A stretch of DNA of 64,000 nucleotides, taken from assembly GCA_019057795.1 (NCBI GenBank), contig JAHLWS010000043.1:13746-77745 (forward strand), read 5' to 3'. The notes under the pieces are model-generated. The model saw only the letters and a list, made by a program, of their open reading frames with translations, did not search any database and was not told the DNA's origin. The stretch's first letter is position 1. Every line of letters begins with the position of its first letter. The position numbers and the translations under genes were made by a program. Below, in pieces: positions 6,242-10,424 of the stretch. The DNA is from Promethearchaeota archaeon (GTDB lineage Archaea; Asgardarchaeota; Lokiarchaeia; Sigyniarchaeales; SOKP01).

Positions 6242-6958
6242 ATGCAACCAAATTCAGAAAAAACTAAAATTTTTTTTAAGAGATTGTTTCAATCAATTAC
6301 TCAAGTTGATTGGGAAAAGTTGCAGACTGAGGTAGAAAACCCCAAAGAAGATTTGAAGAATCATAATTCTGGAGTATTATTATGGGCAAAAGAAGAATTG
6401 TTTAACGCCAACGAGGATTTAGGCTACTATCTTTTCGTTAAAAGCTTGAACGAGCTTTTAGTAGTGTCGGTGAACTCTCCAAAACCTTACAATTCTCCCA
6501 AAACGAAGGACAAAAATCCCATCGTTACCTCTCCTCAGGTTGAACTTTGGAAGTATTACTCCCCCATAGGACCTCCACAGTAAACTGAAGATTCAAGAAA
6601 AAACCAAGACTCCTACCTTGCCGTCCATCCTTTTGGTCAATTAATTTCTTCTAAAGAAGGTCGTTTGGCGTTAAATTTTCTTATGGGGTTTTATGATGGA
6701 GATGGAAATTATCGTGGAGGGATGTCTGCGAGAATCTTAAATTCAAAGAAAACATTTCTGGAGGAAATTGTTGATTTATTTGATATCCCAAATAAAGTAA
6801 ATATAAATTCTAAATATTCCATTGATAAAAAAACTTATAAAATTATCTGGAAAACAGGATACCAATTGCACCTAGGTACAGATTTATTTAATCAAATGCT
6901 ACTTTCATATGAAAACAGTCTACAAAGAAAAAGACCAGAGAATTATAAAAAATTTTGA
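6242..6958 (+). pseudogene. LAGLIDADG-family endonuclease-like gene with one in-frame TAA (6581-6583)
   Basis: ORFs 6242-6583 and 6665-6958 share a frame and 6584-6664 is open; ALNFLMGFYDGDG motif. Confidence 0.7.
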
Positions 6959-8797: not shown

Positions 8798-9687
8798 TTA
8801 TAACCATTCTTCCTTAAAAATTTCTCCTTCAACACTTACTATTATATACTTTATCGGCACTTTTCTATTTGCTCTTTTTGCAGCCTCTTGAACTAGCCCT
8901 AATAAACCACCACAACAAGGGATTTGCATCCTCATGACTGTTAGGGTGTTTATTTTTGCTTCATCAAACCAAGCTCTAATCTTTTCGATGTATATTTCTC
9001 TTCCTTGGTCGAGTTTAGGACAAGCGATCGCTATAGAACGTCCCTTTAAATATTTGTTATGGAATTCACCAAGAGCATAAGCAACGCAGTCAGCCGTAAG
9101 TAACACATCTGCTCCTTGAAAGTATGGGGCTGCAGGATTAATTAAATGCATTTGAACGGGCCACTGTCTTAATGCGGAGGGGACTTTTCCGGTGATAACG
9201 GTCTGTTCCTCAAGCTCGTTAAATACCATTGTTTCTGCAGAAGCACAACTGCATACATGAGAGGTTTCTTCAACCACATGATTTTCAAGTGTTATTCCGG
9301 AATCTTCTTGAGTAGAAGCACAGCCGCATTGGTGGGAATGTTCGGCAACAATTTCCTTCACTTGATTTAATTTTTCCTCCTCTTTTTCTGACAAAGATTC
9401 TAAATGTATCTCAACTGCTTCTTCGTCGAATTCTAACGCTTCTCTTTCAATAATCTCAAGAGCCCCTTCAGGGCATTCTCCTATGCAAGCACCCAAACCA
9501 TCGCAAAAAACCTCGTTTACAACTTTAGCTTTTCCGTCTATAATTGCGAGTGCGCCTTGTATGCTATATAAAACAAATTTTATATTACTGCACAGCCGAC
9601 TACGCAATTACCACATCCAGTACAAAGTTCCTCGTCTATCTCTATAATTTTTCTATTTACAATTTTATGTTGTTTTGTTTCAGTCAT
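8798..9687 (-). CDS. 4Fe-4S dicluster (ferredoxin-domain) protein, two exons: 9687-9588 and 9558-8798 (286 aa after removing 29 nt)
   Basis: ATG at 9687 reads MTETKQHKIVNRKIIEIDEELCTGCGNCVVGCA; removing 9559-9587 gives E-GALAIIDGKAKVVNEVFCDGLGACIGECPEGAL; C-terminal LRQWPVQ, ADC, ACPKLD, PCC motifs. Confidence 0.85.
9559..9587 (-). other. Putative 29-nt archaeal BHB/BHL-type mRNA intron
   Basis: Central helix GUGC/GCAU, 3' bulge AC|A, 5' site AG|U, internal 8-bp stem AUAUAAAA/UUUUAUAU with UUUG loop; excision restores the frame. Confidence 0.75.
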
Positions 9688-9725
9688 ACTTAGAACAATG
9701 GAGATGGTTATATATTTTTAATTTC

Positions 9726-9735
9726 GAACATGTTC
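9726..9735. promoter_or_regulatory. Perfect 10-bp palindrome GAACATGTTC upstream of the ferredoxin-domain gene
   Basis: Palindrome about 40 bp upstream of ATG 9687; operator role is inference. Confidence 0.3.
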
Positions 9736-9750
9736 TTAAGAATTATATAC

Positions 9751-10424
9751 TCAATGAAATTTAGGACATTTTCTTTTCATGCTATTTTTAAAACTGCTTA
9801 ACATTGCGTTAAATAGTTCAGTTCCTAATACTAAATAATATGATTCTCTGATACTAAAACCAGTAGGCTTTCCTTTAGATTTGGCTCTAAAAATGCAATC
9901 AAAAGTCTCTGCAATTAAGTATAAAAATTGTTCGCTACCCGAATAAAGTCTGCCGTATCTTCCAGCTTTAAGACCACCATCACCATCATAAAAACCAAGA
10001 AGCCAAGCTAATGCTTTTTTACCTGATGGAACACACCACCAATGCATTTTACTTCTCTTAGCCTCCATTTCAGCATTATCAATCAATTTAAAAATAAAAT
10101 GTGGTATTGTTTTTTTTTATCTTTAGAACTGGTATAACCTTGGGACATAATATCATTATACATTGTCCTAGAACCAAAACGAACTTCTGCTCTTTTAGAT
10201 TCTATTATCTTACCTTTATACTCTCTGAAAATTGTTCTAATATTTACTTTTTTTTTATCTTATCCAACAACTTCAGCAAATCTAAAAACTCGCTCTTTAT
10301 CTCGCTCTTTAAGACCGAAAAAAATTGTATACTTAGCTCTATCCATATATAAAGATCCATCAGCATTTAAAAAACCGTACCAATAATAAACCTCGACATC
10401 ACCTATTAAATCAGGATTTTTAGA
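9751..10424 (-). pseudogene. Double-motif LAGLIDADG endonuclease pseudogene
   Basis: Motif 1 YYWYGFLNADGS (about 10350-10390), premature TAA 10260-10262, frameshift at the A-run 10110-10118, motif 2 ALAWLLGFYDGDG. Confidence 0.8.

What the first reader, a model, noticed from the sequence alone, without database searches (positions are those of the whole stretch)
9545..9600. Candidate bulge-helix-bulge mini-intron in a protein-coding mRNA of an Asgard-like archaeon
Seen: the ferredoxin-domain gene (ATG 9687, minus strand) reads ...CTGCGNCVVGCA, then hits a 29-nt AU-rich insert (UAAUAUAAAAUUUGUUUUAUAUAGCAUAC, 9587-9559) that causes a stop two codons later, then resumes as GALAIIDG in another frame. 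The pre-mRNA folds as a 2-bp exon helix (CU/AG), a 4-bp central helix GUGC/GCAU, a 3-nt bulge ACA on the 3' strand, an AGUA/A internal loop on the 5' strand, and an 8-bp intron stem with a UUUG loop. Established: archaeal tRNA-splicing endonuclease EndA cuts after the second nucleotide of each bulge in BHB/BHL motifs and RtcB ligates; mRNA introns of this kind are rare, with crenarchaeal cbf5 the classic case. Applying that rule gives AG|U and AC|A, joining G+AA = Glu. This restores the frame and the CAEGAL motif, mirroring CPEGAL in the second cluster. There is no target-site duplication and the junctions cannot slide without changing the spliced sequence. Inference: EndA/RtcB splicing gates expression of this Fe-S protein, conceptually like the frameshifting XBP1/HAC1 introns. 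Gene callers would mis-start such genes, so more may be hidden.
Basis: partly seen in the sequence, partly recalled or inferred. Interest (0 to 1): 0.95.

Follow-up and report, generated by a model that had tools for sequence, protein, structure and literature searches.

The report
Spliced tRNA-type intron in Asgard mRNA
A 29-base insert that breaks an iron-sulfur protein gene of a Loki-type Asgard archaeon is a tRNA-style (bulge-helix-bulge) intron, and environmental RNA shows it removed exactly at the predicted cut sites; the papers I could search document this kind of mRNA splicing for only one archaeal protein gene (cbf5).

Summary
Confirmed. The minus-strand gene for a 2x[4Fe-4S] ferredoxin-domain + AF_0155-domain protein (ATG 9687) is interrupted by a 29-nt insert (9587-9559). 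Removing it gives C-A-E-G-A-L, matching 57 intron-less Asgard orthologues.

- **Conservation:** the insert sits at the same codon phase in 18 distinct alleles (29 or 30 nt, one with an unrelated sequence). All exons are open and dN/dS is 0.1-0.17.
- **Structure:** the pre-mRNA folds as a relaxed bulge-helix-bulge. It has a 15-bp interrupted exon-exon helix, a 4-bp central helix, bulges AG|U and AC|A, and an intron hairpin with compensatory changes.
- **Exon constraint:** synonymous sites in the exon flanks are frozen only in intron-bearing alleles.
- **RNA evidence:** a metatranscriptome contig of the same allele lacks exactly these 29 nt, while a deep run of the same study keeps them.
- **Machinery:** the genome has two EndA paralogues and RtcB, and the gene is single copy.

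Searchable papers document such splicing only for crenarchaeal cbf5. This scan has already noted many such introns in Asgard genomes, including this genome and this same intron elsewhere. Regulated 'gating' is untested. New here are the RNA evidence and the finding that intron presence or absence is tied to a 40-60-nt exon patch, which suggests exchange by short-patch recombination.

The parts
9588..9687 (-). Exon 1: ATG to the G that is the first base of the split Glu codon. It encodes the first CxxCxxCxxxC-A cluster motif.
   Evidence: Fer4_6 E=4e-07; open in all 18 intron-bearing alleles.
9559..9587 (-). 29-nt intron UAAUAUAAAAUUUGUUUUAUAUAGCAUAC.
   Evidence: Absent from 57 orthologues. 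Present at the same site in 18 alleles. Left out of RNA contig X2.
8798..9558 (-). Exon 2: AA of the Glu codon, the second cluster motif, the AF_0155 (PF27217) domain and the stop codon.
9580..9582 (-). TAA that ends the unspliced exon-1 frame after 35 codons. An in-frame stop lies within 2-3 codons of the 5' splice site in every allele seen.
9594..9610 (-). 5' strand of the interrupted exon-exon helix (helix h).
   Evidence: 15/15 pairs form in intron-bearing alleles against a mean of 8.6/15 in intron-less alleles.
9590..9593 (-). 5' strand (GUGC) of the 4-bp central helix.
   Evidence: 72 of 72 cells paired.
9587..9589 (-). 5' bulge A-G|U; the cut lies between 9588 and 9587.
   Evidence: The cut rule comes from PMC2738675.
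9566..9585 (-). Intron hairpin (helix h'): AUAUAAAA / UUUUAUAU with loop UUUG. An A.A mismatch (9586 opposite 9565) lies between it and the central helix.
   Evidence: compensatory changes at 4 of 8 pairs.
9561..9564 (-). 3' strand (GCAU) of the central helix.
9558..9560 (-). 3' bulge A-C|A; the cut lies between 9559 and 9558.
9541..9557 (-). 3' strand of the exon-exon helix.

Best explanation
The 29 nt at 9587-9559 are an archaeal bulge-helix-bulge (tRNA-type) intron inside a protein-coding mRNA. In the pre-mRNA, the last 23 nt of exon 1, the intron, and the first 18 nt of exon 2 fold into a relaxed hBHBh' motif. The parts are a long interrupted exon-exon helix, a 3-nt bulge on the 3' strand (AC|A), a 4-bp central helix (GUGC/GCAU), a 3-nt bulge on the 5' strand (AG|U) closed by an A.A mismatch, and a 7-8-bp AU hairpin. 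The host's heteromeric splicing endonuclease (two EndA paralogues) cuts after the second nucleotide of each bulge. RtcB then joins the exons into ...UGU GCA G|AA GGC..., and presumably circularises the intron. Only the spliced mRNA encodes the full two-cluster ferredoxin-domain + AF_0155 protein; the unspliced mRNA stops after 35 codons. Shown here: the insert, its conserved position, the structure with covariation, purifying selection on the spliced frame, exon flanks constrained only when the intron is present, an RNA contig with the exact junction, and the presence of the enzymes. Inferred: that EndA and RtcB are the enzymes, that the intron is released as a circle, and that splicing is constitutive.
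For: (1) Intact orthologues read CV[IV]xCAEGAL, exactly the predicted junction. (2) The insert is at the identical codon phase in 18 distinct alleles, 29 or 30 nt long. One type has an unrelated sequence (L134), and all alleles have open exons. (3) dN/dS is 0.11-0.17 with dS of 1.3-2.7 between intron-bearing alleles, and the gene is single copy in this genome. (4) For the proposed structure, 93.6% of cells are paired, against 25-52% when partners are slid. The central helix is paired in 72/72 cells. Five pairs change on both sides (10 cells, against 2.6+-1.3 in shuffles, 0/500). (5) Third-codon-position diversity is about 0 at codons -10..+3 and +6/+7 in intron-bearing alleles, but 0.3-0.7 at the same codons in intron-less alleles and elsewhere in the gene. 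The exon helix forms 15/15 pairs with the intron against a mean of 8.6/15 without it. (6) Metatranscriptome contig X2 (575 nt) covers 9026-9619 with exactly 29 nt left out at 9559. It carries the same 23 variants as contigs of run X6 from the same study, and those X6 contigs run through the insert. The spliced junction with these flanks is found in none of 185,579 species genomes. (7) The genome has two EndA homologues, one with the Y/H/K catalytic residues and one lacking the His, plus RtcB. Asgard archaea are reported to have the broad-specificity (alpha-beta)2 EndA with the L1 loop (PMC5829648). The rule of cutting between the 2nd and 3rd bulge nucleotide is from PMC2738675.
Against: The RNA evidence is a single assembled contig with only 32 nt on the exon-1 side, not raw reads. 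The library type of X6, the run that keeps the insert, is not on record. The 5' bulge is not strictly canonical, because a mismatch follows it, and the MFE fold pairs this region slightly differently (-25.0 against -20.7 kcal/mol for the BHB form over 95 nt). No enzyme assay exists. Most variation in the exon helix is one-sided (G.U wobble), so strict covariation there rests on few events. The alleles are related and are not independent samples.
Confidence: 0.88

Rival explanations
1. The RNA contig that lacks the 29 nt does not come from splicing. It comes from an insert-less DNA allele (DNA carry-over or a co-existing strain), so removal at the RNA level is not shown. The comparative case for an intron would still stand.
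For: Intron-less alleles of this gene are common in the same habitats. X4 and X6 record 13 look like such an allele. Only contigs could be laid, and the library type of X6 is unknown.
Against: The X2 contig has intron-type exon flanks, identical to the window from 9507 to 9619. It shares all 23 of its variants with the insert-bearing X6 contigs. None of 57 intron-less alleles has such flanks, and the junction 23-mer is absent from 185,579 genomes. X6, at 2.3 Gb, holds no contig with the gap.
Confidence: 0.06
2. The mRNA is decoded without splicing, either by a programmed -1 ribosomal frameshift upstream of the TAA or by translational bypass of the hairpin.
For: The exon-2 frame is open for 16 codons upstream of 9559, so a -1 shift between 9607 and 9583 would give a fused protein with a 10-residue insertion. 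A stable hairpin follows the stop.
Against: There is no X XXY YYZ slippery site in 9607-9583. Alleles with a 30-nt insert (L134, L143) are in frame and carry an in-frame stop, so a frameshift cannot rescue them. No matching take-off and landing codons give a Glu codon. The result would put about 10 extra residues inside the cluster-binding motif. The RNA contig lacks the 29 nt.
Confidence: 0.02
3. The insert is debris of an insertion and the gene is a pseudogene, or a split gene giving two separate polypeptides.
For: Gene callers annotate a truncated 240-269-aa product in many genomes.
Against: Both exons are open in all 18 alleles. dN/dS is 0.1-0.17 across dS above 1. The gene is single copy. 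The insert length is fixed at 29/30 nt with a conserved structure. The gene is transcribed at depth in metatranscriptomes.
Confidence: 0.02
4. The insert is removed from the RNA, but by an enzyme other than EndA/RtcB.
For: No enzymology is available. The 5' side is a relaxed bulge.
Against: The geometry and cut positions are those of EndA substrates (PMC2738675). The host has both EndA subunit-like genes and RtcB. No IRE1-type RNase domain was found (though the control genomes did not ring either). The region matches no Rfam family.
Confidence: 0.03

Closest known systems
BHB intron in the cbf5 (pseudouridine synthase) pre-mRNA of Crenarchaeota (Watanabe 2002; Yoshinari 2006; Yokobori 2009, PMC2738675)
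   Same: It is a short intron inside a coding sequence with an unconventional BHB. Cut sites lie between the 2nd and 3rd bulge nucleotides. It is processed by a hetero-oligomeric EndA. Its distribution among relatives is patchy, with gain and loss.
   Different: The phylum differs (Promethearchaeota/Asgard), and so does the gene (ferredoxin-domain + AF_0155 protein). Here the exon-exon helix is long (15 bp) and freezes synonymous sites. Intron status is linked to a 40-60-nt exon patch. The evidence here is comparative plus one metatranscriptome contig, not cDNA and enzyme assays.
Archaeal tRNA and rRNA BHB introns cut by EndA and joined by RtcB
   Same: It has the same motif geometry (helix, 3-nt bulge, 4-bp helix, 3-nt bulge, helix) in the tRNA-like arrangement, where the central helix pairs exon 1 with the intron 3' end. 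It falls in the same size class as the mini-introns that crowd Asgard tRNA genes (bioRxiv 10.64898/2026.10.13.758758).
   Different: The host RNA is an mRNA, so the cut sites must also respect a reading frame (phase 1 inside a Glu codon). The exon arms are constrained by both coding and pairing.
BHB element in the 5' UTR of a Haloferax volcanii mRNA (Schwarz et al. 2020, PMC7714728)
   Same: It is an EndA substrate in an mRNA.
   Different: I saw that paper only as a search hit. As I understand it, that element lies in the untranslated leader, not in the coding sequence.
IRE1-dependent HAC1/XBP1 mRNA splicing in eukaryotes
   Same: It is spliceosome-independent. RtcB-family ligation occurs in metazoa. 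The intron changes the reading frame, so only spliced mRNA gives the full protein.
   Different: The recognition motif differs (twin 7-nt loops cut by the IRE1 RNase). No IRE1 RNase domain was found here, and no evidence of regulated splicing was found.

Membership tests
Archaeal BHB (hBHBh') intron, EndA/RtcB substrate | A 4-bp central helix flanked by two 3-nt bulges on opposite strands. | tested here: met
   GUGC/GCAU with AC|A (3' strand) and AG|U (5' strand). The central helix is paired in 72/72 cells of 18 alleles. The form is relaxed: the 5' bulge is followed by an A.A, G.A or C.U mismatch. In the L134 type the 5' site lies in a larger internal loop.
Archaeal BHB (hBHBh') intron, EndA/RtcB substrate | Outer helices h (exon-exon) and h' (within the intron). 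| tested here: met
   The 15-bp interrupted exon helix is 94% paired. The 7-8-bp intron hairpin is 90% paired, with both-side changes at 4 pairs.
Archaeal BHB (hBHBh') intron, EndA/RtcB substrate | Cutting after the 2nd nucleotide of each bulge yields the functional RNA. | tested here: met
   The predicted junction gives CAEGAL, which is what 57 intron-less orthologues read. It holds for the 29-nt and 30-nt alleles and for the AA and AG 3' exon starts.
Archaeal BHB (hBHBh') intron, EndA/RtcB substrate | The intervening sequence is absent from the mature RNA but present in the DNA. | tested here: met
   RNA contig X2 lacks exactly 9559-9587. Same-allele contigs of X6 keep it. This is contig-level evidence, and the library type of X6 is unknown.
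Archaeal BHB (hBHBh') intron, EndA/RtcB substrate | The host encodes the splicing endonuclease and the RtcB ligase. | tested here: met
   Two PF01974 genes (97.7 and 70.5 bits; 200 and 201 aa) and one PF01139 gene (561 bits).
Archaeal BHB (hBHBh') intron, EndA/RtcB substrate | Cleavage depends on EndA, giving 2',3'-cyclic phosphate and 5'-OH ends and a circular intron. | not testable with these tools
   This needs an enzyme assay or circRNA-seq.
cbf5 pre-mRNA intron of Crenarchaeota | Located in cbf5, at the codon of the catalytic Asp, in Desulfurococcales/Sulfolobales. | tested here: not met
   The host gene is a Fer4 + PF27217 protein in Promethearchaeota. It works the same way but is not the same intron.
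IRE1-type unconventional mRNA intron (HAC1/XBP1) | Twin stem-loops with 7-nt loops, cut by an IRE1 KEN-domain RNase. | tested here: not met
   The structure is a BHB. There is no PF06479 match in the genome, but the control genomes did not ring either, so absence is not proven.
Programmed -1 ribosomal frameshift site | A slippery heptamer X XXY YYZ 5-9 nt upstream of a stimulatory structure, and a shift that restores the frame in all alleles. | tested here: not met
   There is no heptamer in 9607-9583. The 30-nt alleles are in frame with a stop.
Group I / group II self-splicing introns | A catalytic RNA core of hundreds of nucleotides. | tested here: not met
   The insert is 29 nt, and there is no Rfam match in 9300-9900 at E<=1.

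The most novel reading that the evidence does not exclude
The intron and its helix-forming exon flanks (about 90-130 nt) behave as one cassette that is swapped between alleles of the gene by short-patch homologous recombination. This would be a protein-free, homing-like way for a BHB mini-intron to spread or be erased. It would operate in a lineage where tRNA-type splicing of mRNAs is routine, in the archaeal group closest to eukaryotes.
Probability: 0.35. Interest if true: 0.85.

Novelty: new member of a known kind. Interest (0 to 1): 0.78.

Why it matters
In the papers I could search, endonuclease-type splicing inside an archaeal coding sequence is confirmed for one gene only (cbf5, Crenarchaeota). 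Here the same mechanism acts on an ordinary redox-protein mRNA in Promethearchaeota, the archaeal phylum nearest to eukaryotes, and there is RNA-level evidence for it. Three things follow.

- **Annotation:** gene callers mis-start this gene in at least ten database entries, producing truncated 240-269-aa products.
- **Codon constraint:** a splicing structure can freeze synonymous sites in exons.
- **Intron dynamics:** this gives a tractable case, with one site, many alleles, and the intron present or absent among near-identical strains. It can be used to study how protein-free mini-introns are gained, lost or exchanged. The recent census of Asgard tRNA introns leaves that question open.

Tried and rejected
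- **Genome-wide scan of my own.** I searched the 4.95-Mb genome for BHB geometry plus an exon-joining ORF filter. It is not discriminating in this 31% GC genome (573 candidates against 542 expected by chance), so I make no census claim from it.
- **Shuffle control on the first 11 alleles.** It was uninformative because all changes were one-sided. It became informative only after diverged alleles were added.
- **RNA runs X3 and X4.** X3 has only short, partly fitting pieces. X4 (depth 922) stops matching at 9558 and continues with 66 other letters. It is most simply a diverged intron-less-type allele, so it says nothing about splicing.
- **Careful ML tree.** It did not finish within the time limit, so the quick tree was used.
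- **Link to the LAGLIDADG-like ORFs.** The two ORFs that flank the cassette are paralogues (38% identity; Pfam LAGLIDADG_3 is below cut-off). No such ORF accompanies the intron in other loci, so I do not tie them to the intron.
- **cDNA-mediated intron loss.** An intron-less allele with intron-type flanks was sought and not found.
- **Family searches.** Rfam has no match. The local Pfam copy lacks PF27217, so the C-terminal domain is named only from precomputed hits. NCBIfam gives only generic ferredoxin-domain hits below cut-off.

Full report
**The observation.** On the minus strand, an ORF starting at ATG 9687 reads MTETKQHKIVNRKIIEIDEELCTGCGNCVVGCAVI and stops at TAA 9582-9580. A second frame reads QGALAIIDGKAKVVNEVFCDGLGACIGECPEGAL... 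from 9559 to the stop at 8798. The first piece is the first half of a 4Fe-4S dicluster domain (Fer4_6, E=4e-07). The second piece holds the second cluster motif and a C-terminal domain recorded as PF27217 (AF_0155). Deleting 9587-9559 (29 nt) joins G and AA into GAA and gives ...GCAEGAL.... The 29-mer occurs once in the window. The 71-nt region folds better than all 200 shuffles (z = -3.4).

**Comparison with relatives.** A protein search with exon 2 found thousands of relatives. The closest are from Promethearchaeota (Loki-type Asgard) MAGs. Full-length ones read CV[IV]xCAEGALAIIDG, exactly the predicted junction. About ten database proteins of 240-269 aa instead begin with (M/L)RSRLCS[ND]IK..LYSI[QK]GAL, which is the same out-of-frame reading through an insert. 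I fetched the DNA in four ways:

- 80 species-representative loci
- contigs encoding the truncated proteins
- a phylum-wide search with the 95-nt motif
- a metagenome pattern scan anchored on the exons only

This yielded 18 distinct intron-bearing alleles and 57 distinct intron-less Asgard alleles. In every intron-bearing allele the insert lies between the G and the A[A/G] of the same Glu codon. It is 29 nt in most alleles and 30 nt in two types (L143, L134). The L134 type (also L183, L189) has an essentially unrelated intron sequence. All exons are open. In the phylum sample, the full motif is in 7 of 400 genomes, all in one family: only this genome among 41 of its genus, 5 of 54 in a second genus, and 1 of 10 in a third.

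**The gene is alive.** Between intron-bearing alleles, dN/dS of the spliced reading frame is 0.11-0.17, while dS is 1.3-2.7 or saturated. This genome has only this one copy.

**Structure.** With the window allele as reference, the pre-mRNA forms the following elements:

- An exon-exon helix of 15 pairs, interrupted by a G.G mismatch and two single-base bulges (9610-9594 with 9557-9541).
- A central helix GUGC/GCAU (9593-9590 with 9564-9561).
- A 3-nt bulge A-C|A on the 3' strand (9560-9558).
- A 3-nt bulge A-G|U on the 5' strand (9589-9587), followed by an A.A mismatch.
- An 8-bp AU hairpin with a UUUG loop (9585-9566).

This is the tRNA-like arrangement of a bulge-helix-bulge motif, in relaxed form. 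Across the 18 alleles, 93.6% of cells are paired, against 25-52% when the 3' partners are slid by 1-3 columns. The central helix is paired in 72 of 72 cells. Five pairs change on both sides (10 cells; shuffles give 2.6 +- 1.3, and 0 of 500 reach 10). These include U-A to C-G, A-U to G-C and A-U to U-A in the intron hairpin, and U-A to C-G in the exon helix. In the exon helix, most changes are A-to-G opposite U or C-to-U opposite G, so pairing is kept through wobble. The BHB form costs -20.7 kcal/mol against an MFE of -25.0 over 95 nt, so it is near-optimal but not the MFE. Every allele has an in-frame stop within three codons of the 5' splice site. This may be a by-product of the AU-rich stem.

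**Exon constraint.** Among intron-bearing alleles, third-codon-position diversity is about 0 from codon -10 to +3 and at +6/+7 around the insertion. It is 0.5-0.7 elsewhere in the gene, and 0.3-0.7 at the same codons among intron-less alleles. The 15 exon positions pair 15/15 in ten of eleven intron-bearing alleles (13/15 in one). In intron-less alleles they pair only 8.6/15 on average, with a maximum of 12. So the exon arms are held by the intron's structure. This is what one expects if splicing depends on that fold.

**RNA evidence.** Of the public runs that hold part of the stretch, I laid three metatranscriptomes and one deep run of unrecorded type.

- A 575-nt contig of metatranscriptome X2 (depth 16.4) covers 9026-9619 with exactly 29 nt left out at 9559.
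- All 23 of its differences from the window lie between 9039 and 9506. They are the same variants carried by two contigs of run X6 (same study, 2.3 Gb).
- One of those X6 contigs spans 9437-9735 and retains the insert. No X6 contig shows the gap.

A 23-mer of this junction, with one position left free, occurs in none of 185,579 species genomes. None of the 57 intron-less alleles has such flanks. Three caveats apply: this is one assembled contig, it has 32 nt on the short side, and the library type of X6 is unknown.

**Enzymes.** The genome encodes two EndA-family proteins of 200 and 201 aa. One has the Tyr/His/Lys catalytic residues and the other lacks the His, which suggests an alpha/beta pair (this is my reading). 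It also encodes one RtcB. Published work places the broad-specificity (alpha-beta)2 EndA with the L1 loop in Asgard archaea (PMC5829648). It also places the cut between the 2nd and 3rd bulge nucleotides (PMC2738675).

**Rivals.**
- A -1 frameshift would insert about 10 residues into the cluster motif, has no slippery site, and cannot rescue the in-frame 30-nt alleles.
- Translational bypass has no matching take-off and landing codons and cannot rebuild the Glu codon.
- A pseudogene is excluded by the selection data.
- The one rival worth keeping is that the RNA contig reflects an insert-less DNA allele. The flank and variant pattern argue against it.

**Evolutionary pattern (inference).** On a tree of the C-terminal part, intron-bearing alleles are scattered. 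Parsimony needs 10 changes, and well-supported branches force at least 3 (quick tree). Close intron+/intron- pairs are nearly identical along the gene except for a tight patch around the junction:

- L084 against L008: differences run from about -22 to +17.
- L082 against L001: differences run from about -33 to +25.
- L052 against L031: the sequences are 100% identical from about +33 to the end of the contig, but about 75% identical upstream.

That patch coincides with the helix-forming flanks. The simplest reading is short-patch recombination that carries the intron together with its exon arms, or removes both. The direction is not resolved. cDNA-type loss would leave intron-type flanks without the intron, and that was not seen.

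**Context.** The gene sits in a conserved redox neighbourhood made up of:

- an HTH_10 regulator
- an FMN_red (iron-sulfur flavoprotein-like) gene
- a glutaredoxin-like gene
- in relatives, a Pyr_redox_2/rubredoxin_C oxidoreductase

The genome's single uL11 gene is also broken by two short stop-containing inserts. ARAGORN recognises only 18 tRNA genes in this genome, which is rated 100% complete. That fits the heavily interrupted Asgard tRNA genes described in bioRxiv 10.64898/2026.10.13.758758, a paper that does not mention mRNAs.

**What is known.** Full-text searches found no paper that describes BHB introns in Asgard protein-coding genes. In 2009, PMC2738675 stated that pre-mRNA splicing was confirmed for no archaeal gene other than cbf5. 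Earlier notes of this scan report many such mini-introns in Asgard genomes. They include at least 11 genes of this genome, and this same ferredoxin intron in another genome, which is the L025-type allele I analysed here. I treated those notes as leads only. I checked uL11 myself.

**Verdict.** This is a genuine tRNA-type intron spliced from an mRNA. It is a new member of the cbf5 kind, in a new phylum and gene. The comparative support is unusually complete and there is first RNA-level support. Regulated splicing remains untested.

Noticed in passing
window 6665-6958 (+) and 9751-10086 (-): Two small paralogous ORFs (38% identity) with a LLGFYDGDG-type motif point inward around the Grx-Isf-HTH-ferredoxin cassette. 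Pfam LAGLIDADG_3 matches them only below cut-off (E=0.002 and 0.17). Two further copies lie inside 428- and 566-aa frames elsewhere in the genome. No such ORF lies next to the intron-bearing gene in other loci.
   Followed up: partly
L096 (G000 C73:107223-110324), minus strand around locus 1500-1750: The only uL11 gene found is split by two short inserts carrying stops: ...GGSASGGPPI / T*... / GPAVGPTGIN / ...*... / ANIKDVVDAVNEKT.... The Pfam L11_N match covers only profile positions 26-58. This agrees with earlier notes that an essential gene of this genome needs mRNA splicing.
   Followed up: partly
whole genome G000: ARAGORN finds only 18 tRNA genes, 10 with an anticodon-loop intron, in a genome rated 100% complete. 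Most tRNA genes are probably too interrupted to be recognised.
   Followed up: no
L093 1453-2055 (-) and L094 1435-2040 (-): There are two EndA-family genes of 200 and 201 aa. The first has the Y..H..K catalytic residues and the second lacks the His. This looks like an alpha/beta heteromeric endonuclease.
   Followed up: partly
L052 vs L031 (two MAGs of one study): The ferredoxin genes are 100% identical in DNA from about 33 nt downstream of the intron site to the contig end, but about 75% identical upstream. One has the intron and the other does not. This is either a recombinant or a chimeric assembly of co-existing strains.
   Followed up: partly
L044 (DATKTW010000151.1): A contig filed under 'Candidatus Nanopelagicaceae bacterium' (Actinomycetota) carries a copy of this gene that nests deep inside the Promethearchaeota clade. 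This is probably a binning error.
   Followed up: no
L063-L080: Bacteroidota and Omnitrophota genomes hold orthologues at 48-50% identity that read C[HPQ]EGA[LM] at the junction and have no insert. The family is not restricted to archaea.
   Followed up: no
window 9351-9693, run X4: A related (intron-less-type) allele of this gene reaches a contig depth of 922 in a 46-Mb metatranscriptome, so the gene family appears strongly expressed in that habitat.
   Followed up: no
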